DNA from: Perkinsus olseni
Lineage: Eukaryota
Reading direction: 5' to 3'
NCBI GenBank assembly: GCA_013115125.1
Contig: JABANN010000040.1
Location: 1-64,000, forward strand
Length of the DNA stretch: 64,000 nt
In this document: positions 3,962 through 20,647 of the stretch, one piece after another
How positions within the stretch are numbered: position 1 is the first letter of the stretch
Layout: each line of letters opens with the position of its first letter
Notes under the pieces: generated by a model
The model's database searches: none
What the model was told of the DNA's origin: nothing
What the model saw: the letters and a program-made list of their open reading frames with translations, nothing else
Program-made: the position numbers and the translations under genes

Positions 3962-6900
3962 ATGGAGCAGACTTCGTTACTAGACCAGCTCAGTGACGAG
4001 CAGAAGAAGCGGTTGGAAGATCTCAAATGCGAGCCAACGGACTTGGAGGAGTGTCTCTCCGATGCCGATCCCGAGGAGTTCGACGACGGCCAGGTAGCAT
4101 CTGGGCGCCGGACAGCGTCATCAGACTGAACGGGAGCTGGTCAGTGGGCCTCTATGGACTATTACCAGTCAATCGTGAGGCGTTGAAGGGGTCTTAGACT
4201 GCTTGAATGGGATTCGGCAGAGTTACGGTATTGAACGTGGCAGATACCCCGAGACGAGGCCTTCCAGTCGACCATTATCATAACCAACTTGCCTAAGGTC
4301 GAGGAACGGAAGCTGGATAAGCTCAAGCATGTCTTGGCTAAGACAATCAGGAAGGTTGATGGTTGTGGCGAGGAAGAGCCAGACATGTAGTACTGGGATT
4401 TGGTATGGCTTTGAGAAAACAGCGGCGCCCTGTTGCCATCGGTTTGATGGCATCAAGCACCATCTCGACTCAGTGGATCGCTTGAATACGTCACGAGCTG
4501 TTTTCGGTGTGAGTGTTGCTATGGTGCGTGATAGTTACATGCCAATCAACGAGGAAGAGGGTCACACCGACGGTGTGGCGGTGGTCACATTCGCCAAGGC
4601 GAGCCACGCCGCGGAGGCTTTGAAGGTAATTGGTGACAGCGCTATTGGGTCCCTGAGTGCACTGCGGAGCAGGTTCTCGACCATTATCACTTTGGCAAGG
4701 CTAACGTGCTGCGGACTTTCGCCATCGATCACAGAGACGAGGTGCTCGCATGCAATGATGATGGTACAATGCCGGAGGAGGACGAGGGTGAGGAGTCCGC
4801 AGATGTAAGCATACGCCAAGCACCTCCATTCTTGGAGGAGATGGATATTTCTCAGCATTTCCAGCACGGTCGTTTGATGGCCGGCTACACTCTGAAGGAT
4901 ACTCGGGATTGGATGTTGGACAAGGAGTGGAGGGAAATGCTCGCTATAAGGTTCGCCTGAGAGAAGCACTACGTGCGAGTATTCCCTTAATGCCATCAGA
5001 TATGAGAAGCAAACGGAAGTCTCATGGTACACCCACCTGGACAAGCGTGGGCCTGTCATCCAGTATGATGGCGCTCGGGAGCGGGCCCAGCGGAAGGTGT
5101 GGACCGACTCTAATGTGGCTTGGAGTCCGAGGGGCACCTTCTTGGTCACCTTCCACGCTCCTGGTGTCAATCTTTGGGGCGGTGAGAACTTTGAGAAGAA
5201 GATACAGTGCGAACATGCTAGGGTTCGTCGTGTTATCTTCACCAACAATGAGAGGTAGGGAGTTGCTTGTTTGCCTTGAGTGACTTGTGAGTTGACGCAG
5301 GTACCTGATGACTTGGAATGGTACTAACCCGTCCCATGCTGATCTCGCTGCTGTGCGGATATTCGATCTCTTCACTGGGGAGTGCAAGCGAACGATGCCC
5401 TTGCCTGAGCTGGCTGCCGTTGCGGTAATAACACCAGGGTGTAGTCTGCCCGCCTACTCAGTGTGCTTGTTGTAGGACCCTATCGTCCCGGCTGAGCCCG
5501 CTGTGTCTGGCCCCGGAGCACCTGTTGCTGCCTCGAGAGGAAGACGCACGGTAACGCCCGTACTCGGCCTTCGTGAAGGAGCATCAGCGCTTATTTTTAT
5601 CAGATTCCGATGTACATGTGGTCCCACAGCGGAGATTACTTTGCCAAGAGGTTGGACAATGGAGTGTAGGTTGCATGCTCTGTCGCCAAGGCTTCTGGAA
5701 AGTGCCTTCTCAGAATGATCTATGAGACTCCCTCAATGGAGATGAAGGAGGTCTTGAAGTATCCTGGCATCACGGCGATCTCCTGGTGTCCGGCCAAGCG
5801 GGACATCCTCGCTGTCTGGGTACGTCTCACTCGGTCAGGCTCGCAGCCGCTCGTATGCGGCAAGTGTTCAGGTTCCCGAGAGCGCCAACTCTCCCGCAAG
5901 GTTTGCTCTGCTGGAGTCCAAGAAGAAGAGCCCCTTCAAGGAAATCGTTGCTAAGAACGCTTTCCAGGTGGGGAATCGGACCGCCCGGTCACTCGGCCTA
6001 GATCACCCGCTCATCTTCCTGTGGCTTCAGATCGACAACAGTCGGCCTGCTGATATCTATTGGCATCCTCAAGGTGACTACGTGGCGACTAACGTTCTGC
6101 GTGTGTCCAAGAGCGGCAAGACTGGGTAAAGCTTCTAGAGGTCCCTATCGACGACGCGTTGCTATGTCGTCTTTTCTAGAAACCCGCTGTTGGAAATCTT
6201 CCGTCTCAACGAGAAGGGTTGCCCGGCTGAGAAGATTGAGCTAAAGAACAGAGCTGTGAAGGCGGTAAGTGGCCGGCTCTTGGACTATGATCACCGCGGG
6301 TATCCGCTTCCTATTAGGTTCACTGGGAGCCTCATGGCAATCGCTTAGCTGTTGTGAACACTAGCACTGAGGGTCGCGACCCAAAGATCTGGTTCTACGA
6401 GGTAGGCTGATGGGGGGCGGTTAAACGGTGGTCGAGACCAGTGTGTGGTGGCTTAGGTGAAGACGACCAGCACCATCGTTGGAGCTCCTGCTACAGTGGA
6501 GAAGGTCGCTGAGTACTCCATGACCAACTACATGCATCTCTTTAAGTGGAATACGTTCGGAAAGTACAGAGTCGACTCACTAGCTTTTTGTTCGAAGACT
6601 GCGTGCGTAGATACTGGGTCATGTGGTCTGAGTCCAGCGGTGAGATCGTCTTCGGATGCCTTACTCCTGAGAACAAGGTGGATATCCACAACACGGATGA
6701 GCACTTCATGCTCAACCATGTCGCGTGGGACCCTAGCGGAAGGTGAGCCCTCGCGTCGTCTCTCGTACTCATGTCCATGCCTGTGTCTGGAAGGTATCTC
6801 CTCACCGCCGTTACCCAGAACATCTTTGAGAGTGCGGCGGGCCGAGGGTACAGGAATGCTCAGGAGAGCGGCTTCTGCATCTGGAGCTTCCAGGGCCGTC

Positions 6901-7419
6901 TTATGTAACAGTGCGCCTTTGTAGTTCCTTGTGGGCATAGGGTTCGGTGCGCAGGTACAAGTGCCCGAAGGAAAGCCTGTGGTTCGCGGACTGGAGGCCC
7001 CATCCGAAGCAGCTTCTGTCTGAGAAGGAGGTTGAGGCCATCAGGAAGGACTACAAGCAGTACATTGCACAATACGAGGCTGGTGATCGGGACTTCGCTA
7101 GCCAACAGCGTGCGGCCGCGGTTGCAGACAGGAAGGCTATTCAGAACGACTTCAGGTGGGTGCCATGAGATTCTTTCGGAAGTGCCTAGTGGGACTATTG
7201 TAGATCTATGCTCAAGGACCTCAAGGAGTACCGTGCTGAGCTGTGCAAATCACAGGGTTGCGAGGACTGGGAGCAGGTGAGCTCACGGAGCCTTGGGTTA
7301 CGTGCGGACTGTGGGGTATTGTGTAGGGCTTCAAGCGTTTGGCTGCCTCGAGAGAGACTGTCACATTCACCGAGACCAGAGAGATCGATCAAGGAAAGCC
7401 GGTAATACTTTGCCAGTGA
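3962..7419 (+). CDS. EIF3B: Eukaryotic translation initiation factor 3 subunit B (multi-exon)
   Basis: RRM exon FQSTIIITNLPKVEERKLDKLKHVLAK; WD region VWTDSNVAWSPRGTFLVTFHAPGVNLWGGENF, ERYLMTWNG, IYWHPQGDY, DEHFMLNHVAWDPSGRY, WRPHPKQLLSEKEVEAIRKDYKQY; last exon ends KPVILCQ*. Many short GT-AG introns. Confidence 0.93.
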
Positions 7420-7823
7420 GCAGGTGGCATTACGTGCATCTCTATAATAACTTTGCGCTTACATACATGAACTGTAATCCTCGCCTGGAATGCTTCGAGT
7501 CATTGTTGCTATTTTTCAGCAAGAGGAGTTGTACTCGTTCTGAGGGGCCTGCTGTCGTGCCCCCGGTTGCTAACCTCACAATGGTGTCAAGCTTAGCAGC
7601 AGCCCCTGCACCAAGGCCGATCTCTACTCCGTTACTCCTCATAACACTGCTTCATAGGCCATCCTGGTGCCACCGCCGCCGCTGTACAACCGCAAAGTAT
7701 CTCGCTCACGTTTCAACAGTCGATTTTTGGTGGCTTGGGTTAGTCGTATAAGGAGTGACTGTGCGGGAGCCGATACCAAAATTCAGGGTGGAGAGCGTCC
7801 GTCGACAGCCACTAGTTCGGACC

Positions 7824-9401
7824 ATGTCTGAACCTCCGCCCGAGCAGGAGGGCGATCAGGGGTTACCTGTTGTCGAGAGCAACTCTTTGGAAAAGGATAG
7901 CGTTGAAGCTGATAAACAGATGGATGTACGATGGGGTCCCTTTTTGGGAGGTTGGCTCGTTCCAACTCACACACCTAGCGAGGCTCTCGGCCATCATTTA
8001 CGAAGTGTAATCGTGTCACTGGGTGAGGGGAGGCAGCAGGTCCGACGGGGGGCTCATACATTCCCGGTAGGCCAGCAGGTTTCGGATTTTCCCTCGATTC
8101 TTTTATCGGTGCTGTTTGAAGCCATGGATGAAACATTGGCAACCTCGCTGATGTGTCTGAGCTCGACCGTTCATTTTCATTCTCAGGTTAGTCGAGAGCC
8201 GTTGAGTGGTTACGAGGACCTAGTTACTGAGGAGGACCTGTATGCTCTGGAGCGGTCGCGGAGAGGACCTCGACGCCCGTCTTGGAAACTGCTCAACCCA
8301 CCGAGGAAGAAAACAATAGACGAAGCGAATCCAGTTGTAGTACATCTAGGGCTGTCGCAGACAATCCGGGCCGGGACAAGTGTGGGAAATGCTATATGGG
8401 TGATTAGTCGTTGTGAGATCACAGCTGATCGGCCCCGGCGGTCTTCGCGGTCGCGTTCAAGAAACGGTATTCAAGACCAAGGCACGCTCGGGTCCTAGTT
8501 CGAGAGAACCTAGTCCTTGTTTTGTATTGGCTGGATATTATCTTGTTGGGCGCTTCACTTTAGGGCCAGCGCAGGGCATCTCCGAGTAAACGTCGATCGT
8601 CTCCTGACTACGCGGACCTCCTGCCGAGTGGAGATGAGGAGAGTGACGATGAGGGCCACCAGCGGCGTCGCGGACGTTCTCGCGAGCTCACTACCGCGGA
8701 CATCGGAAAGAAGGTGTGCTTCGCAGCCGCTCGCTGTCGATGATTATGAAGATCAGACTGGCGGTAGTCCGCGGATAAGGCCGAGAGTACCGAGTCGAGA
8801 CGAGGATCGACTGCCGCGAAATACAAGCGGTGATATCAGGTATTTTCGGAATTCGTTTGATTTTATGCACGATGGTCCCCGTTGGTTCAGGAAGCAGTTT
8901 TATCGGCATAGTGATAACGATTCCCATCGGCGATTCTTCGACCGCAACAGACACACAGGAAGCCGGTTCGAAGACCATTACAAAAAGTACACGACGGTGG
9001 AGGATCAGAAGAGGGTGCAGAGCAATCGAGTCGCGGGGATCAGCGATTTCCTTGCCTGGGCTAAGGACGCGAAGGGAGTGGGTGACGGAGGGACACATGG
9101 TGAGTCCTTGCCTTCGTCATTTCCACTTCGCATCGAGCCTGAACTATCGCACATCTTCGCGCAGGCCAGCAGCGGCCAAAGAAGTCATCGAAATCGATAT
9201 CTTTATCTCCGAGGAAGAGGACCAGTCGACGGAGATCTCGGAGTCGATCTCCCAACTACGATGATAGAATTGAAAAACGCGGGGGTCACCGTGGTGTTGT
9301 ATTTGGTAGACGGCGATGAGTTGTGTACCAAGCACGAGTTGTGTTCCACAGTGGATATCACGCGGCAGTGGGATAGTATATTTCCCCTTCACACGCCTTA
9401 G
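7824..9401 (+). CDS. Hypothetical protein (multi-exon)
   Basis: Long plus-strand ORFs 7755-8498 and 8517-9401 interrupted by plausible GT-AG introns; no family recognised. Confidence 0.45.
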
Positions 9402-9811
9402 AATCACGTGTCTTAGTCTAAGCCTTTCTAAGACTCTTAGAACAGTATGTTTCCCCATGTCACGCATGTTAATGTCTTCACCGCTTCTTCGTCAGGCATA
9501 CACGACGAGATGCCGCATACAGCACATGCTTCGCACCTGACGAATACGCTGGTTACTCACATGGATGGCCCTTTCTGCCAATTTTTAACTATTCCACTGA
9601 TTGAGAAGTTTAACGCAAATCTGCAAATATTGTGATACCTCTTTTTTCCTGGTTCCCAGTAGAAAGCCAGTCGTAGTAAGCGAATCGTCCCGTGCGACTA
9701 GTACAGCACTTGAATAGTGATGTGAAAGAACTAACGGGCCAGAGTCGCTACAACGACCACACAAGCAGCAGAACCACCAAAGGCGGGTAGCAAACTGATG
9801 ATGTAAACAGC

Positions 9812-10344
9812 TTACAACCTGCGACCACGGCGACCGCACTTCTTCCTGGTGGAATCGGTGGGGATGGGGGTAACATCCTCGATACGGCCGATCTTCATGC
9901 CAGCACGAGCGAGGGCACGGAGGGCAGCCTGGGCACCGGGACCGGGGGTCTTAGTCTTGGTACCACCGGTGGCGCGAAGCTTGATGTGAAGAGCGTTAAC
10001 ACCGAGCTCCTGAGAAAAAAGCGATCATCCAACCTAGAAGCAAGAGATGAGAGGAACTATCCCGAGACAGCGGCATTTCCCCGACTTATTACCTTGCACC
10101 TGACGGCGACATCCTGAGCGGCAAGCATGGCAGCGTAGGGAGAAGACTCATCACGATCAGCCTTCACCTTCATACCACCGGTAACACGGACCAAGGTCTC
10201 GCGACCGGACACATCAGTGACGTGGATGAAGGTATCGTTGAAGGAGGCGTAGATGTGAGCAACGCCGAACACGAGCTCACCCTCACGGACCTGGGGACCG
10301 AGCTGGATGGGCTCTTCGGTCTTAGGGGCTTTCTTAGGGGCCAT
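9812..10344 (-). CDS. RPS14: 40S ribosomal protein S14 (uS11); exons 10344-10093 and 10009-9812
   Basis: [56 protein letters not shown]...[60 protein letters not shown]; one GT-AG intron. Confidence 0.98.
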
Positions 10345-10601
10345 TGGAAAAGTGGCTGGTACTAGTTCAGAGAAGCACGGCGCTCGCCAAGGCAGGATTA
10401 GCGCAATCGATTGGAGAAATAGTTGAGGAAGAGCAAGATTATGCAAGTGCGCAAGCTACCGGGAATTGTCCAATGCTTTGGCCACGTCACGTCAGAGCTC
10501 CACGTGAGTTCCGTAGCACAGTGTTGATGCTGCTCGTCGCAGGGAGATTGACATCGATTGACCTTGGCTCAGTAGAGCCTTCTTCTCATTTCACTGACAT
10601 C

Positions 10602-13194: not shown

Positions 13195-16100
13195 ATGGCG
13201 GACGTCGCCGCACTACTTGAGTCAATAGAAAGGTCTCAGTCGGAGGTCGAAAGTGTGAAGTTACGGATAGCAAATGTAGCTGGTAGTACTGCAGGGAGAG
13301 GATGGGAGGCTTCGGGATGGATTGCATTTATACCTGCGTGACGGCCATGCGCTGATGACTTCCTTGTTGAGGTCTCACTGATCGCTCCTTGAAACCGCGT
13401 TGATTGAGGAAGCAGCGCACTAACTCCGTTTTCGTGCTCCTATTGTTGTGTGAACTGATCGCCTGCTCTGCGGCGTATCGGGAGACCCGCTGAGAAATGT
13501 ATCCTGAAGGTAAACTGAACCAAGTGAGGATGGCGGTTGCAACTTCGTCGGGGCCCTCCTCGGCCATGAAGGACGTTGGTACTAATCGGCTGAGAGATGA
13601 GATCGCTAAGGCCCGAGACGGGATTAAGCAGTAAGGAGACTGCGAGTTTGAGCTGAGCGGCGGTGGGAGGGGGTCTGGTTAGGTTCAAGAATTTGATCAA
13701 GGACGCTGCAGAGGCAGCCGCAGCTGAGGAGCAAACTACGATGGGATTCGGGGCGCTCAAAAAACGCATGGCGCACGATGACAAGACTAAGACACTGTAA
13801 TGACAGGCGAGTGTTGGTAGCCGGGATGGGTGATTGATAGGTATGAGAGAATCGGCGGCGACTTGACATTGGAAACGGCTGTGGAGATGGCATACGGCCG
13901 AGCGCTCCAGGACCCGAGGACAAGGTAGTGCTGGCTGACTCTGGTACGATCACTCGGTGTTCGAGCTTCCACATATCTGCCGAACCTTTGCCGGCTTCTT
14001 TGTGAACTCCGTCGTGGTCAGGGCCTACTTCGAGAAGAACCAGCGGAAGATGGCTTCTATTCGACAGAAAATGCACCAGGTGACAATGCTATGATAAGCC
14101 GCAGCCTGGGCGGTAGCATGCTTGGTATTTCAGTTCCTCTCGGGGTTGATGGGTGGACCGGTACTCTACGACGAGGAGAATGTGAAGCCCGCCCATTATC
14201 ACATGAATATTACTGACTACCACTTCGATGCGGTGAGTCCCTGTTTCGCAGTACTTGCAACTGCGGTAACCTCGATACGGGTGCAGGTGGTTGAACACTT
14301 CCAGAATGCCGTCGAGGAGCTGGGCGTTCACCCAAATGCCGTACTTGACGCTGTTACGGCTTTCCGGACGGTGATTGGACTGGCTGTCTGGGAGGAGATA
14401 GTGAAGGGATGTTCGATCAGGTTCGCAGGGAGATCACTACAGGTTGCACTGTGCGCATGGAAGTAGCACGGCGGAACATGGAGAAGGGGAAAGACCTTCT
14501 TTATAGGAAAGTTGGCGGTACTATCAGTATGAGCGCTGGAAATGGGAGGATCTTTGGCGCCTCAGAGGCGAAAGGCGTTGCTAAGTTTATGGAGAGGCTT
14601 TATGATCTCATCTGTATTGATACGCGCATAAAAAAGTTCTTCCAAGGCAAGGATGTTAACAAGTGGGTTGATGGGAAGTCGAAGGCGCGTCGGCCTGAAC
14701 TGAGTTCGTCGATTAGGGTCAAGAAAAGCCAGACTGTGTTCTTCACGGAAGTCCTGGGGGGTGACAATAAGTGGAAAGGTGGGGGCTGCTGAGATGATGA
14801 TAGATCGAAAAAATGTGAATTTTCAAGGTCGGTCCATACCAGAAATTCATAAGGGCATGAATGTCGATGACTACCACTTCGACTGTTTGCTCATGAACGC
14901 AGAGAAGGCTCTGTCGGGTCTTGGTGTGGAGGAAGACACCATAGACGAGGTGACACCAGCGGGGGGTGTTCTGTCACTTAGCGGGAGATTCCTGAGGGCA
15001 GGTACTGGTTGTGCTGGAAGGGTTCCGCGCGGAGGTACTGAATCGTAAGCGAGGGATTAACGCGGCACATAAGGTGGTAGACGGGAAGACAGTCCTTGAG
15101 CGACTGGGAGGAGAGATGAATATGGAGTCCCTCATCGAGACGATGTGAGCTCGGCCGTGCCAGCAGGTCGGAGTCGTTCTCGAAGGCTGAGGAATGCAGG
15201 TATTCTGGATGCCTAGTAGACCCAAGAGTCAAGTACTACTTCGCGCTGGAGCCGGCCAAGATGACGAATCTAAAGTCGAAGATGGTAACCCCGCCTTGCT
15301 ACTGGTGGTTATGAAGAAGTCTGTCGCAACAGGCACAAGTCATAGTTGGGCTCAGTGGCGGCCCGGCGGTCTACGACTTGAAGCGTCTTCGGCCCCTTCA
15401 TTACAACATGAATATCACCGACTACCACTTCGATACGATGCTCGAGAACCTTCGCGTGAGTTTTGTTCGGGACACAATCGCCGAGAATTGCGAACCGTCC
15501 ACCGCACCCGTGTTACGATGGTCGTCATGTGTGTAGGTGGCATGTGAGATGATGGAGCTCACTCCAGAGCTTACGCGGGATATTGCAGAAGTTGCCGCAT
15601 CTGTGCGACCGGACATCACGGCTGGGTGCACTGTTCGACTGGAGATCGCCCGGAAGAAGACTGAAAGCGCCGGTACTGTTGGGAGCGGACGAATTGACGG
15701 CGCTAACTCAGGACTGATCGATGCCTTCCGATATTTCGTCTTTCCTTTCCCACGGCCGAGTTACTGAGAGCGGCGTTCGAATCATGATCAAGTGTGACAG
15801 GCACGGACGGGCTCTTCTGCGTCCTCGGCGGAGATGAAGGGGTGATGAAGTTCATGGACAAGCTGTATGAGTCGGTACTACTGGACGATCGAATCCAGCA
15901 CTTCTTCTCGGGTGCTAAGCTGGACTCCGTGAAGAAGAGTCAAGGTAGATGCGGCACCCGTCGCTCCCACTCTTTCCGGTGATCATTATCACCAGTCGCG
16001 CTCTGAATGCCCCGTTTTATTATGAGCTGTGCTGGCTTTCGCTGATACTGTGTCTCTTCAGCGGAGTATGTGGCGCAGCTTTTCGGCTCCGCCCGGGAGT

Positions 16101-19100
16101 ACATGGGCAGAGAGCTCCCTCGGATACACGCGATGATCAGAATTGCCGACTTCCACTTCGACTGCTTTATCGAACAGTGCAGGAAGAATTTGGCGGCATG
16201 CGGGCTGGATTCGGACTCTGTGGACGAATGTAGTGAGGGCAGTGGTTGTCAAGATCAGTCCCGAGTTACCCACGCTAGTCGTTTCGATCCCGCCGTCCGA
16301 CTCGTATTGAGGCATCGTGCTCCTCTTAAAAAGTGCGAGCTCGGGAGTTTCGTATCGATTGATGTTTCAACGGCGTTCCTAGCTAGTGTAGCTTAGTGGC
16401 AGAGCGTCAGTTCTGTAACCCGAAGTTCTGCGATTCAATCCAACCAATCAGCTTCTATCGTTGAATTAATTCGTCGAAAATTTCGCTGAAAAGTCGGCAT
16501 TTCCTGTACACTGAAGGTTGGCGGTTCAATCCCGCCATTTGGAATTTGGTACCAAAGTTTGGAATCAGGCAATTTCCAGTATCAATTGACACTTTTCCGG
16601 CTTTGAGTGGTTTTTCAAGGCGGTTTAGCTTGATGGTAGAGTGTCAGTGTTGTAAACTGAAGGTCGGCGGTTCAATCCCGTCATCCGGCTTGTATTGCTC
16701 CATTGACTCATTCGAAACTTTTCGGAAAATTTGGAATCAGGCAAGTTTTAGTAACAATTGACACTTTTCCAGCTTCAGTTGGCATCTCAAGCCGGTTTAG
16801 CTTAGTGGTAGAGCGTCAGTCTTGTAAACTGAAGGTCGGCGGTTCAATTTCGCCATTCGGCTTGTATTGCTCCATTGACTCATTCGGAATTTTTCGGAAA
16901 ATTTGGGCTCAGGCAATCTTCAGTGTCAATTGACACTTTTCCAGCTTCAATTGGCATCTCAAGCCGGTTTAGCTTAGTGGTAGAGCTTCAGTGTTGTAAA
17001 CTTAAGGTCGGCGGACCAATCCCGCCATCCGGTTTGTATTGCTGCATTAACTCATTCAGAATTTTTCGGGAAATTTGGAATCAAGCAAGTTTTAGTAGCA
17101 ATTGACACTTTTCCAGCTTCGAAAGGGGTTTCAAGCCGGTTTAGCTTAGTGGTAGAGCGTCAGTCTTGTAAACTGAAGGTCGGCGGATCAATCCCGCCAT
17201 CCGGCTTATGCAGTAGCTTTTCAAACCGGTTTAGCTTAGTGGTAGAGCGTCAGTGTTGAAAACTGAAGGTCGGTGGATCAATCCCGCTATCCGGCTTATG
17301 CTGCATTGACTCATTCGGATTTTTTCGGAAGATTTGGAATAAAGCAAGTTTTAGTAGCAATTGACACTTTTCCAGCTTCGAATGGGGTTTCAAGCCGGTT
17401 TAGCTTAGTGGTAGAGCGTCAGTCTTGTAAACTGAAGGTCGGCGGTTCAATCCCGCCATCCGGCTTGTATTGCTTCATTAACTCATTCGGATTTTTTCGG
17501 AAAATTTGGGCTCAGGCAATCTTCAGTGTCAATTGACACTTTTCCGGCTTTGAGTGGCTATTCAAGTCGGTTTAGCTTAGTGGTAGAGCGTCAGTCTTGT
17601 AAACTGAAGGTCGGCGGTTCAATCCCGCTATCCGGCTTATGCTGCATTGACTAATTCGGAACTTTTCGGAAAATTTGGAATCAGGCGATTTTCAGTAGCA
17701 ATTGACACTTTTCCAGCTTCAACTGGCATCTCAAGCCGGTTTAGCTTGATGGTAGAGTGTCAGTGTTGTAAACTTAAGGTCGGCGGACCAATCCCGCCAT
17801 CCGGCTTGTATTGCTGCATTAACTCATTCAGAATTTTTCGGGAAATTTGGAGTCAAGCAAGTTTTAGTAGCAATTGACACTTTTCCAGCTTCGAAAAGGG
17901 TTTCAAGCCGGTTTAGCTTAGTGGTAGAGCGTCAGTCTTGTAAACTGAAGGTCGGCAGTTCAATTCCGCCACCCGGCTCGTATTGCTCCATCGACTCATT
18001 CGAAACTTTTCGGACAATTTGCAATCAGACAAGTTTTAGTAGCAATTGACACTTTTCCGGCTTTGAGTAGCTTTTCAAGCCGGTTTAGCTTAGTGGTAGA
18101 GCGTCAGCCTTGTAAACTGAAGGTCGGCGGATCAATCCCGCTATCTGGCTTATGCTGCATTGACTCATTCGGATTTTTTCGGAAGATTTGGGATAAAGCA
18201 AGTTTTAGTAGCAATTGACACTTTTGCAGCTTCGAGTGCGGTTTCAAGCCGGTTTAGCTTAGTGGTAGAGCGTCAGTCTTGTAAACTGTAGGTCGGCGGT
18301 TCAATCCCGCCATTCGGCTTATGCTGCATTGACTTGATGCATTGATTTAGGGTCTACGTAGTCTAAGAGTTTCTTCCTTAGGCACAGTGCTGCTTGAGAC
18401 AGCGCGGGCGTCCGTTGTGCACCCCGATCTGAGAAAGCACGACTCCAAGCGAGCGCAGCAGTTAGCAAATATGAAACCGATGTAATCTCATCTCCAAGCG
18501 AGCCTCTTTCTCTTTTTAGGGTATGGTTTTTTCTCTATTATCGCACTTTTGATGCGCGGTTCGAATCACGTAGGCTTTGGATGGGATACTGACTCATTAG
18601 GTACGATCGGATTGGAGGCGAGCCTGCACTTACTAAGCTTATTGACATAGTATACGACAAGGCACTTGTGGACACGAGTCTGCGTAGCTTTCTCGAGAAG
18701 AATAAAGCCAAGGTTTCTTCTATAAAGAAGAAGATGATTCAATTCCTGTGTGGAATAACCGGTGAGTGCGCTATCATAATCAGCGCTAGCTATCGACGTG
18801 CGCCCAATCCTATGTCTACCGTCAGGGGGTCCAACCAGCTATGATGCCAACGATATGCTACCGGCGCACTACAACATGAATATCACGGATTATCACTTCG
18901 ATGCAATGTTGATACTCATCCGAGAAACCTTCCTTCGGGAGCTGGATATGAAGCGAAGTAGGCACGGGAACTCCGGTTGCGCATATTCGGCCGTTGGCTC
19001 AGGCGATTCTCGGGAACTCATGAAACTGCTGCAGCCTGTGAGACCGATGGTTACTACAGGCTTTGGCGTGAGGAGAGAAATAGCGTTGAAGAATCTGTCA

Positions 19101-20647
19101 TTAGGCAAAGACCAGCTGTACAGGAAGTGAGTACTATCAGGCTCGGCTAGGCCGTCAAACGAAGCAGCTGAGCTATCGTCTCATCGGAGGTTCTTCCGTT
19201 TAGGCTGGGCGGCGAGAAGGGCATTCGGGAGACCCTGAATGTTCTGTACCAAATCGTGGCCACCGATGCTCGAATCAAGGAGTTCTTCGTCGAAAAGAAA
19301 ATCAAAAAGATAAAAGAGGGGCAAACGAAGTACTTCATCGAAATGTTTGGAGGGCCGAAGACGTCCACCGGCCGCGAGCTCTACGCCATCCACGAGAATC
19401 TTGGAGTCAATGATTTCCACTTCGATGCCTTCATGGCCGACCTCCAGCGGGCTATGCTCGGCACTGGCGTTGATGAGGTGATTATGGATGAGGTGCTGAT
19501 CACCGTAGAACAAGTACGACCTCAAGTGATGGGCAGGAAGACTGTCGAGGGTAGAGGGACCCTGGAGTGATTGGGCCCGACTGAGTATGTGTATTCAGTC
19601 GCCGGAGTGATGAAGAACGGCAAGACGCTGCTGATGCGGCTAGGTGGCGATATGAACCTCGAGTCTCTCGTCGAGAATATGTGAGTTGCCCTGAAAAGGC
19701 CGCCCTGCCTCGGGCGTGAGATTCTCAGGTACGATCGTGCCGTTGTGGACTCGAGGGTGCAATTCTTCTTTAATCGAGACAAGGCCACACAGAGGAGGAT
19801 CCGCATGAAAATGTAACGCTTTCTCTCCACTGTACCGTCGCACTAGCTGCATGTGAACCAGGTACCAGTATCTCAGTGGAGCCTTTGGTGGCCCGGTACA
19901 GTACGACCCTGCCAACTTGAAGCCAGCTCATTATAATATGAACATCACCAACTATCACTTTGATGCCATACTAGAGATCTTAACTAGAGCTGCCAAGGAG
20001 ATGAATATTGATGCTGACACGATGGACGATATGACCCAGGTCGGTGGCTGCTGGATGTAGTGTGCAGTACATCGCCATTATCATCGGCAGGTCGTGAACG
20101 GTATCCGCTCTGACGTTACCATCGGCTGCACGGTGAGAATGGAAGCTGCGAGAAAGAAGAACGAGACCGACGGCTTGGATCAGCTATTCATGAAACTGGG
20201 CGGCCACGAGGGAATCTCCACCTTCATCAGTCGCCTGTAGTCACATAGCGTGGGTGCTCAAGGGATGGGTTGAATGTCGGCAGATATGAATTCGTCGAGA
20301 GAGACAACAGAATCAATATGTTTTTTGAAGGCTCCAAGCTGGAGCTCATCAAGAAGGCCCAGGGCGACTACATCAGCATGCTGCTCGGAGGTGCTGTCTC
20401 CCGTACTTTTGGTGGACACAGCGGTGTCTCCTTAGGTTCGTCCGAGTACAACGGGAGAAGCCTCGAGGAAATCCACCAAACCCTCGCCATGACTGACTTC
20501 CACTTGGACTGCTTCCTCCAGTGCGTTCAGAAGGCCCTCAGGGACTGCGGCGCCGAGCAGGACACGACTGATGAAGTTGTCGTTCGACTGGAGTCTGTTC
20601 GGAAGGCGATCCTCCACGCTCACTACTCCGACGCCCAGTACAGCTGA
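13195..20647 (+). CDS. Polymeric group-I truncated (2/2) haemoglobin: short N-terminal helical region plus 8 tandem globin domains
   Basis: Spliced translation gives eight units, each with an LYxxLGG-like start (VGE in domain 2), Tyr B10, a D.R...FF-like CD region, a GG hinge (GS in domain 4), proximal His F8 and HFD/HLD. Starts: YERIGG (~13842), LYRKVG (~14500), LERLGG (~15095), LFCVLGG (~15812), YDRIGG (~18602), LYRK|LGG (~19115), LLMRLGG (~19628), LFMKLGG (~20184). Ends HAHYSDAQYS*. Confidence 0.92.
16382..16453 (+). pseudogene. Highly degenerate tRNA-Thr(TGT) copy
   Basis: GCTAGTGTAGCTTAGTGGCAGAGCGTCAGTTCTGTAACCCGAAG...TTCAATC; anticodon and T stems broken. Confidence 0.7.
16619..16690 (+). 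pseudogene. tRNA-Thr(TGT) copy 1, likely defective
   Basis: G2 mismatch in acceptor stem, D-loop AG changed to GA, G at position 32. Confidence 0.65.
16791..16862 (+). tRNA. tRNA-Thr(TGT) copy 2
   Basis: Cloverleaf with TCAGT-CTTGTAA-ACTGA; invariant C61 changed to T, so function is uncertain. Confidence 0.65.
16963..17034 (+). pseudogene. tRNA-Thr(TGT) copy 3, defective
   Basis: GGTTC changed to GGACC in the B box; anticodon stem mismatch (ACTTA). Confidence 0.75.
17135..17206 (+). tRNA. tRNA-Thr(TGT) copy 4
   Basis: Matches the array consensus except T54 to A (GGATCAA). Confidence 0.6.
17225..17296 (+). pseudogene. tRNA-Thr-derived copy 5 with anticodon TGA
   Basis: TCAGT-GTTGAAA-ACTGA; A1, T54 to A and T-stem wobbles. 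Confidence 0.7.
17394..17465 (+). tRNA. tRNA-Thr(TGT) copy 6 (array consensus)
   Basis: GCCGGTT TA GCTT AGTGGTA GAGC G TCAGT CTTGTAA ACTGA AGGTC GGCGG TTCAATC CCGCC ATCCGGC T; intact A and B boxes, T6 run ~25 nt downstream. Confidence 0.9.
17566..17637 (+). tRNA. tRNA-Thr(TGT) copy 7
   Basis: Consensus apart from two changes that give G-U wobbles. Confidence 0.8.
17735..17806 (+). pseudogene. tRNA-Thr(TGT) copy 8, defective
   Basis: GGACC B box, ACTTA anticodon stem, altered D loop. Confidence 0.75.
17907..17978 (+). tRNA. tRNA-Thr(TGT) copy 9
   Basis: Intact anticodon arm; one A-C mismatch in the T stem. Confidence 0.65.
18079..18150 (+). pseudogene. tRNA-Thr(TGT) copy 10, likely defective
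   Basis: C-A mismatch closing the anticodon stem, T54 to A, additional wobbles. Confidence 0.6.
18248..18319 (+). tRNA. tRNA-Thr(TGT) copy 11
   Basis: Intact boxes; T-T mismatch at the top of the anticodon stem. Confidence 0.7.

What the first reader, a model, noticed from the sequence alone, without database searches (positions are those of the whole stretch)
14020..20390. Strict alternation of two distal haem pockets along the globin chain
Aligned to the trHbN E helix (E7-x-x-E10-E11-x-x-F): odd domains IRQKM, LKSKM, IKKKM, IRMKM give Lys E10/Met E11; even domains VKKSQ, VKKSQ, IKEGQ, IKKAQ give small E10/Gln E11. Known: E10 supplies the sixth iron ligand in Chlamydomonas THB1 (Lys) and cyanobacterial GlbN (His), while Tyr B10/Gln E11 stabilises bound O2 in pentacoordinate trHbN. 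Inference: the functional unit is a di-domain pairing a hexacoordinate (electron-relay) haem with an open ligand-binding haem, repeated four times as a built-in redox/NO-dioxygenase module.
Basis: partly seen in the sequence, partly recalled or inferred. Interest (0 to 1): 0.78.

Follow-up and report, generated by a model that had tools for sequence, protein, structure and literature searches.

The report
Eight-haem globin with two alternating pockets
A shellfish-parasite gene strings eight small haemoglobin units into one chain in a fixed A-B-A-B order with two different gas-binding pockets; the pairing is old and conserved, but the proposed lysine-to-iron 'electron wire' is probably not how it works.

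Summary
The alternation is real. Window 13195-20647 is a spliced 28-exon Perkinsus olseni gene for a 1165-aa protein: a helical N-terminus plus eight group-1 truncated haemoglobin domains, (AB)4. All eight motifs quoted are correct and in E7-E11 register. A and B are two old domain types (A-A 37-47%, A-B 19-28% identity), kept in eight genes of this genome, in Oxyrrhis and in uncultured eukaryotes. The lysine-ligand reading is weak: E10 of A is Lys 62, Arg 23, other 14 of 99; only 3 of 21 full-length proteins have Lys in all four A domains; five-coordinate M. tuberculosis HbN and THB11 also carry Lys E10. Best reading: two five-coordinate pockets, a tight O2-binding B and a basic, faster-exchanging, reductase-docking A, for O2/NO handling (inferred). 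Multi-unit truncated globins are known in silico; this scan noted the same design on paralogues (e1-7222879, e1-7223522).

The parts
13195..20647 (+). Octa-domain group-1 truncated haemoglobin gene, 28 exons, 1165 aa, N-terminal helical region + (AB)4
   Evidence: Spliced mapping of P0001 residues 309-1473; 15 of 27 introns seen as joints in run X1; Pfam PF01152
13195..13788 (+). N-terminal region, about 105 aa, two long predicted helices; present throughout the family; no known family
   Evidence: Alignment A2; AlphaFold2 helices 4-42 and 55-83 at low confidence in orthologue P0010; no usable Atlas hit
13789..14447 (+). Domain 1, type A: Tyr B10, Ile E7, Lys E10 (codon at 14068), Met E11, His F8, Val G8
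14493..15049 (+). Domain 2, type B: Tyr B10, Val E7, Ser E10, Gln E11, His F8, Leu G8 (Phe in 16 of 21 family members)
15086..15629 (+). Domain 3, type A: Tyr B10, Leu E7, Lys E10, Met E11, His F8, Met G8
15806..18428 (+). Domain 4, type B: Tyr B10, Val E7, Ser E10, Gln E11, His F8, Phe G8; interrupted by the 2152-nt intron
16230..18381 (+). Intron 17, holding a same-strand array of 12 tRNA-Thr(TGT)-like copies, period about 172 nt (not part of the protein)
   Evidence: ARAGORN 9 calls, TRF, 12 copies, spliced out in X1
18474..19061 (+). Domain 5, type A: Tyr B10, Leu CD1, Ile E7, Lys E10, Met E11, His F8, Met G8
19110..19540 (+). Domain 6, type B: Tyr B10, Ile E7, Gly E10, Gln E11, His F8, Phe G8
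19622..20129 (+). Domain 7, type A: Tyr B10, Ile E7, Lys E10, Met E11 (codon split by an intron), His F8, Ile G8
20178..20623 (+). Domain 8, type B: Tyr B10, Ile E7, Ala E10, Gln E11, His F8, Phe G8

Best explanation
A single-chain hetero-octameric truncated haemoglobin, (AB)4. Shown: eight domains of two old types in fixed order, all with the proximal His, joined A-to-B by a conserved helical linker. Inferred: both types bind haem and are five-coordinate when ferrous. B (Tyr B10, Gln E11, small E10, aromatic G8) holds O2 tightly behind a narrowed short tunnel. A (Tyr B10, apolar E11, small aliphatic G8, basic CE loop and E helix) exchanges ligand faster, and its Lys/Arg E10 acts by charge, at the haem propionate edge and as a docking surface for an acidic reductant such as cytochrome b5, not as an iron ligand. 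Fusion fixes a 1:1 ratio and geometry of the two haems. The likeliest job is O2-dependent NO removal or O2 buffering at low or fluctuating oxygen, with re-reduction from a separate protein, since the chain has no reductase domain.
For: Pocket counts in 100 A and 105 B domains after 80% de-duplication: A E10 Lys 62/Arg 23/other 14; A E11 apolar 98/99; B E11 Gln 71/105; B E10 Gly/Ala/Ser/Asn 92/105; aromatic G8 B 97/105, A 20/100; Tyr B10 plus Gln E11 B 66/105, A 0/100; His F8 98/100 and 104/105. Lys/Arg in the CE loop to E11: A 5.2, B 2.9 per domain. PMC4720485 passages: basic E10 supports haem binding; Phe/Trp G8 blocks the short tunnel; apolar E7/E11/G8 goes with low affinity, Gln E11 with high. 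The title of Gacon 1980 names Lys E10 of haemoglobin beta in cytochrome b5 binding (reference list only). Linker conservation A-to-B 0.75, 0.74, 0.66, 0.60 against B-to-A 0.56, 0.55, 0.49. AlphaFold2 of full-length orthologue P0010: pLDDT 82.9, pTM 0.67; a B-A pair alone pTM 0.54. All 8 genes found in the genome are (AB)4. Only PF01152-type domains in the chain; many cytochrome b5 domains elsewhere in the genome.
Against: Nothing here measures haem binding, affinity or activity. Pocket residues drift: 39 of 105 B domains lack the Tyr B10/Gln E11 pair, domain 6 has Phe B10 in 11 of 21 proteins, and G8 is aromatic in 20 of 100 A domains. The A-B interface itself was not modelled on its own. The D4-to-D5 (B-to-A) linker length is as constant (SD 1.3) as the A-to-B ones, and the B-A pair modelled has a longer Gly-rich linker than the window protein. 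The window protein has Lys at all four A sites, and the two Lys-ligated structures (4XDI, 6BME) align best to the A domain of the model rather than to B. No link between the b5 proteins and the globin was tested.
Confidence: 0.45

Rival explanations
1. One reading: A is six-coordinate (His F8/Lys E10) and relays electrons to a ligand-binding B, a built-in NO dioxygenase module.
For: Lys is the commonest E10 residue of A (62/99) and almost absent from B (2/105); the window protein has it in all four A domains; THB1, 2 and 4 use Lys E10 as ligand and E10 ligation can favour electron transfer (PMC7082302, PMC11904497 passages); 4XDI and 6BME align best to the model's A domain (Z 14.0, rmsd 2.7, 119 aligned; Z 12.2, rmsd 3.0, 121 aligned).
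Against: At least 16 Lys/Arg swaps against 1 change at His F8; 3 of 21 proteins with four Lys; Lys E10 in five-coordinate HbN and ferrous THB11; the same A domain fits an open, ligand-bound TrHbN better (8TLS, Z 16.3, rmsd 1.7, 116 aligned), a weak point because the model has no haem.
Confidence: 0.13
2. An O2 store or buffer: a fused alpha/beta-like octamer whose two affinities (or cooperativity across the A-B interface) widen the loading range, with no catalytic role.
For: Eight near-complete haem sites per chain, eight genes per genome, no reductase domain, a compact predicted assembly; many invertebrate storage haemoglobins are multi-domain (recalled, not checked).
Against: Tyr B10 with Gln E11 predicts slow O2 release, which suits enzymatic use better than delivery (PMC11904497 and PMC4720485 passages); abundance of the protein is unknown.
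Confidence: 0.2
3. The alternation is structural history: an A-B pair doubled twice, and the pocket differences persist because of packing, not a division of labour.
For: Whole domains alternate, not only pockets; D2 groups with D6 and D3 with most D7, as two doublings predict; many type-specific positions lie outside the pocket; some paralogues lose polar pocket residues in both types.
Against: E11 of A stays apolar in 98 of 99 and G8 of B aromatic in 97 of 105 domains at 35-60% sequence identity; these residues line the ligand site. History and function are not exclusive.
Confidence: 0.15
4. A gas or redox sensor that signals through the conserved N-terminal helices.
For: The N-terminal region is kept in all full-length members and is predicted helical.
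Against: No output domain is recognised; eight haems are more than sensing needs; the region may only oligomerise or anchor the chain.
Confidence: 0.07

Closest known systems
Multi-unit group-1 truncated haemoglobins (Hade et al. 2017, doi 10.1002/iub.1630, not readable here; Chlamydomonas THB5, four tandem 2/2 domains)
   Same: Several TrHb1 domains in one chain, in microbial eukaryotes; known in silico (one sentence in PMC7475203; THB5 in PMC7082302).
   Different: Fixed (AB)4 with two conserved pocket types, a conserved A-to-B linker helix and an N-terminal helical region. Other tandem TrHb1 proteins found (e.g. P0056, P0057, P0066, P0069) do not sort into these A/B types and several are near-uniform repeats. 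Whether Hade et al. list the Perkinsus proteins could not be checked.
Mycobacterium tuberculosis HbN (PDB 1IDR) and Tetrahymena TrHb1 (3AQ5)
   Same: Same fold (rmsd 1.5-1.7 A to a domain of the model); B shares HbN's Tyr B10/apolar E7/Gln E11; A shares HbN's Lys E10.
   Different: These are single domains. B has lost the basic E10 and gained an aromatic G8; A has an apolar E11 and a two-residue longer CE loop.
Chlamydomonas THB1/THB4 (Lys E10 six-coordinate) and THB10/THB11 (Lys E10, ferrous five-coordinate)
   Same: Tyr B10, Lys E10 and His F8 in 46 of 100 A domains for the first two residues.
   Different: A domains have apolar E7 and E11 and often Arg E10; THB11 shows that Lys E10 alone does not decide ligation.

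Membership tests
Group-1 (N) truncated haemoglobin | 2/2 globin fold, PF01152 | tested here: met
   Pfam 8 stretches in orthologue P0010, window domains 6 and 8 over cut-off; best structural matches are TrHb1
Group-1 (N) truncated haemoglobin | Proximal His F8, Tyr B10, Phe CD1, AB and EF Gly-Gly motifs | tested here: met
   His F8 and Tyr B10 8 of 8, Phe CD1 7 of 8 in the window protein; His F8 164 of 168 in 21 proteins; some Gly-Gly motifs have one Gly replaced
Group-1 (N) truncated haemoglobin | Binds haem b and O2 | not testable with these tools
   No spectroscopy possible
Multi-unit TrHb1 | Several TrHb1 domains in one spliced reading frame | tested here: met
   intron-free orthologue in L001
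Lys E10 six-coordinate TrHb1 (THB1, THB2, THB4), for the A domains | Lys at E10 | tested here: met
   4 of 4 A domains in the window protein
Lys E10 six-coordinate TrHb1 (THB1, THB2, THB4), for the A domains | Lys E10 conserved as a ligand across orthologues (expected if ligation is the function) | tested here: not met
   Lys 62, Arg 23, other 14 of 99; at least 16 swaps; 3 of 21 proteins all-Lys
Lys E10 six-coordinate TrHb1 (THB1, THB2, THB4), for the A domains | Closed, Lys-on conformation | tested here: inconclusive
   Haem-free model: A domain to 8TLS Z 16.3 rmsd 1.7 (116), to 4XDI Z 14.0 rmsd 2.7 (119), to 6BME Z 12.2 rmsd 3.0 (121)
Lys E10 six-coordinate TrHb1 (THB1, THB2, THB4), for the A domains | Low-spin His/Lys spectrum | not testable with these tools
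   Needs UV-vis, EPR or NMR
HbN-type NO dioxygenase, for the B domains | Tyr B10 with Gln E11 | tested here: met
   4 of 4 in the window protein; 66 of 105 in the family
HbN-type NO dioxygenase, for the B domains | Small G8, open short tunnel | tested here: not met
   Phe in 3 of 4 window B domains; aromatic in 97 of 105; Val in 13 of 13 single-domain relatives. G8 placed by counting from the conserved G-helix Phe; numbering recalled
HbN-type NO dioxygenase, for the B domains | NO turnover with a reductant | not testable with these tools
   Needs assay
Flavohaemoglobin-like self-sufficient module | Fused FAD/NAD reductase domain | tested here: not met
   No such domain in the chain

The most novel reading that the evidence does not exclude
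The chain is a genetically fused, alpha/beta-like eight-haem machine with a true division of labour: basic A domains take electrons from cytochrome b5 (with or without transient Lys ligation) and pass them to the neighbouring buried B haem, which holds O2 and turns over NO; the donors are the membrane-anchored poly-cytochrome-b5 chains (up to eight b5 domains, some fused to fumarate-reductase-like flavoproteins) of the same genome. This would be the first truncated globin with inter-haem electron transfer or cooperativity between two unlike domains.
Probability: 0.15. Interest if true: 0.8.

Novelty: new variant of a known kind. Interest (0 to 1): 0.5.

Why it matters
Truncated haemoglobins are studied almost only as single domains, and what decides Lys E10 ligation is stated to be unresolved (PMC7082302). 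This family offers a natural panel: two unlike pockets in fixed 1:1 fusion and many natural Lys/Arg/Gln swaps at E10 in otherwise intact domains, so both the ligation rule and inter-haem communication become directly testable. It may also show how perkinsids and Oxyrrhis handle low oxygen and NO. It is not parasite-specific, and no function has been measured.

Tried and rejected
Neither AlphaFold2 job returns coordinates or haem, so the position of Lys E10 could not be measured. ESM Atlas gave no usable hit for the N-terminal region. No 3/3 globin (PF00042) match in the own genome, exon-wise search, weak. The sequencing-run search listed no holder on record as RNA; one guessed-RNA run was laid, contigs only, no level. 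Longer chains (11 domains in P0006, P0007; 10 in P0008) were rejected as real: at the C14 locus a stop and a new N-terminal region lie between domain 8 and the next domain 1; P0024 (P. marinus, 11 stretches) was not resolved. P0001's first 308 residues belong to an upstream gene (Pfam PF04178 precomputed; relatives start at the same Met). Met E11 as an iron ligand was considered and set aside: it swaps with Phe, Leu, Ile, Val. Ten paper searches found no paper on this family; Perkinsus appeared only in a reference title, the Symbiodinium paper concerns other globins. Hade 2017 and Nye 2019 were not held.
Full report
1. The gene. The interval lies in an intron-rich eukaryotic gene. A search with the one uninterrupted domain returned P0001, labelled Perkinsus olseni by its source, at 100% identity. 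Residues 309-1473 of P0001 map letter for letter to window 13195-20644 through 27 GT-AG introns, followed by TGA; its first 308 residues come from an upstream gene (precomputed PF04178; relatives begin at the same Met). Contigs of one public run (X1, RNA by guess) show 15 of the 27 introns as joints, including the 2152-nt intron that carries a tRNA-Thr array. The product is 1165 aa: about 105 residues of predicted helix, then eight PF01152 domains.

2. The observation. The register holds: domain 6 aligns without gaps to Tetrahymena TrHb1, with Ile on Q46 and Gln on Q50, the residues changed in the Q46E and Q50E structures (that these are E7 and E11 is recalled and fits the title of the paper cited in PMC4720485). 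A paralogous odd domain puts Lys-Met on Lys57-Gln58 of M. tuberculosis HbN. All eight window domains have Tyr B10 and His F8; CD1 is Phe in seven and Leu in domain 5. The alternation involves whole domains: odd-odd 37-47%, even-even 32-43%, odd-even 19-28% identity, and in a tree of 168 domains from 21 proteins the 84 odd ones form one clade (support 0.976). D2 groups with D6 (17 of 21) and D3 with D7 (17 of 21), as two successive doublings of an A-B pair would give; D4+D8 has weak support and D1+D5 is not recovered. I call odd A and even B.

3. The family. A full-length query found 35 proteins at 28-58% identity or self: P. olseni, P. chesapeaki, P. marinus, Oxyrrhis marina, unnamed transcriptomes and metagenome contigs. 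One contig (L001) is an intron-free eukaryote with two copies in tandem. GTDB gave no confirmed relative. The own genome has eight genes at seven loci, each with eight F-G motifs in A-B order (two loci show one extra weak B hit, from a split exon and the opposite strand); the 16 domains at C14 are two genes with a stop and a new N-terminus between them. Eight thus seems fixed. The shorter relatives found were fragments or unrelated single domains (only 8000 candidates scored). Oxyrrhis is free-living (recalled), so this is not a parasite invention. Other tandem TrHb1 proteins among the 150 best of 4562 profile hits do not sort into A and B.

4. The pockets. Two counts were made. In 21 full-length proteins (the window's plus the 20 of 36 hits that are 1050-1300 aa long), E10 of A is Lys 51, Arg 23, other 10 of 84; E11 of A is apolar in 84 of 84; E10 of B is Ala/Gly/Ser/Asn in 74 and E11 of B Gln in 55 of 84. 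In 53 hand-picked family proteins, 314 domains of 95 aa or more, cut to 205 at 80% identity (100 A, 105 B by profiles built from the 21, so the sorting is not independent): E10 of A Lys 62, Arg 23, other 14 of 99; E11 of A apolar 98 of 99; E10 of B small 92 of 105; E11 of B Gln 71 of 105; His F8 98 of 100 and 104 of 105. A third pocket position alternates: G8 is aromatic in 97 of 105 B and 20 of 100 A domains; Tyr B10 with Gln E11 occurs in 66 B and no A. G8 was placed by counting from the conserved G-helix Phe; the numbering is recalled.

5. Is Lys E10 an iron ligand? A ligand should be kept like His F8, which changes once on the A tree. E10 needs at least 16 Lys/Arg changes, close to shuffled labels (mean 20.2, minimum 15); 20 of 23 Arg domains keep Tyr B10 and His F8; 3 of 21 full-length proteins, the window's among them, have Lys at all four sites. 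Arg is not a usual haem ligand (established knowledge), so what is kept is the charge. Lys E10 is also a common default: 8 of 13 single-domain relatives (His 4, Met 1) and 22 of 84 non-family Tyr B10/Gln E11 domains. THB10 and THB11 keep Lys E10 but are five-coordinate when ferrous, and no clear sequence determinants of ligation are known (PMC7082302, passages). PMC4720485 says that the basic E10 supports haem binding and that Phe or Trp at G8 blocks the short tunnel (passages and sections 8, 9). So the derived traits are the loss of Gln E11 in A and the loss of basic E10 plus gain of aromatic G8 in B. Against my reading: Lys is still the commonest E10 of A and nearly absent from B (2 of 105); THB11 looks six-coordinate when ferric; and the Lys-ligated structures 4XDI and 6BME align best to the A domain of a model (Z 14.0, rmsd 2.7, 119 residues; Z 12.2, rmsd 3.0, 121), though an open TrHbN fits that domain better (8TLS, Z 16.3, rmsd 1.7, 116). 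The model has no haem, so this is inconclusive. Ligation in some A domains cannot be excluded.

6. Architecture. The A-to-B linkers continue helix H and are better kept (mean top-residue frequency 0.75, 0.74, 0.66, 0.60; length SD 0.3, 2.6, 1.7, 1.5) than the B-to-A linkers (0.56, 0.55, 0.49; SD 12.7, 1.3, 4.6), D4-D5 being an exception in length. AlphaFold2 of orthologue P0010 (54% identical, same E10/E11 pattern; 24 sequences) gave pLDDT 82.9 and pTM 0.67, high for eight domains and suggesting a defined assembly (the reading of pTM is my inference). A linked B-A pair from L001 gave pLDDT 84.6 but pTM 0.54, an unfixed orientation; its linker is longer than the window's. The A-B pair alone was not modelled and haem distances are unknown. 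No solved structure matched more than one domain in Foldseek.

7. How it most likely works. Shown: order, types, residues, splicing. Inferred: B holds O2 tightly (Tyr B10/Gln E11) behind a narrowed tunnel; A is more apolar and open, and carries a basic patch (5.2 against 2.9 Lys/Arg from the CE loop to E11). In human haemoglobin Lys E10 of beta takes part in cytochrome b5 binding (title of Gacon 1980 in the reference list of PMC8773178; paper not read). The chain has no reductase domain, while the genome encodes many b5 domains, among them acidic poly-b5 membrane proteins and flavoprotein fusions; any link is untested. I give 0.45 to two five-coordinate pockets with charge-based E10 and O2/NO handling, 0.2 to a pure O2 store, 0.15 to structural history alone, 0.13 to the Lys-ligated relay and 0.07 to sensing.

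8. What is known. Multi-unit group-1 truncated globins were described in silico (one sentence in PMC7475203 citing Hade 2017; the paper itself was not held, and may list Perkinsus), and Chlamydomonas THB5 has four domains. Ten full-text searches found no paper on this family or its alternation; most subscription papers are outside the library, and no supplements were read (Table S2 of PMC4720485 could bear on predicted rates). PMC3631397, PMC11453091 and PMC5219038 were seen as passages and did not bear on it. This scan has already noted the eight-domain design and the alternation on other pieces of this genome (e1-7222879, e1-7223522); these notes are not independent support.

9. Verdict. Observation confirmed; interpretation partly supported (di-domain unit yes, Lys ligation unlikely, B probably not the open pocket). 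A new variant of a known kind, with a good natural panel for an open question in globin chemistry. Interest 0.5.

Noticed in passing
window 16230-18381 (+): Intron 17 of the globin gene holds 12 same-strand tRNA-Thr(TGT)-like copies at about 172-nt period, several degenerate (9 called by ARAGORN, one as Ser-TGA); the intron is spliced out in run X1.
   Followed up: partly
L010:2357-4582 and 5232-8264 (+), L014:528-2759 (-), L012, L013, L015 (own genome): Intron-free frames with 2-8 tandem cytochrome b5 domains followed by a membrane domain with a weak SdhC/b558-family match (E 2e-07, below cut-off); all carry a net negative charge. Candidate electron donors; no link to the globin tested.
   Followed up: partly
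L011:749-7093 (-) (own genome): A 2115-codon frame with three fumarate-reductase-like flavoprotein domains, three b5 domains and a similar C-terminal membrane region: a possible single-chain electron path for anaerobic fumarate reduction.
   Followed up: partly
L002/L003 (G000:C14), L004-L008: Seven further (AB)4 genes in the genome, two of them in tandem; public gene models fuse the tandem pair (P0006-P0008) and fuse the window gene to its upstream neighbour (P0001).
   Followed up: yes
L001:3032-6943 and 7037-10537 (+): An intron-free eukaryotic contig carries a divergent and a canonical octa-globin head to tail, beside Utp13-like, mitochondrial-carrier, MCM and M16-peptidase genes; the divergent copy has lost Tyr B10 in domains 5-8.
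   Followed up: partly
P0056 (1882 aa, source label Lacrimia lanifica), P0057, P0066, P0069: Other tandem TrHb1 proteins with 5-12 domains that do not follow the A/B pattern, apparently separate origins of poly-globins.
   Followed up: no
window 10057-10455 (-): Frame resembling ribosomal protein uS11/S14 (by eye, recalled).
   Followed up: no
L009 (G000:C210:802-1170, -): An apparently single-domain TrHb1 frame in the same genome.
   Followed up: no
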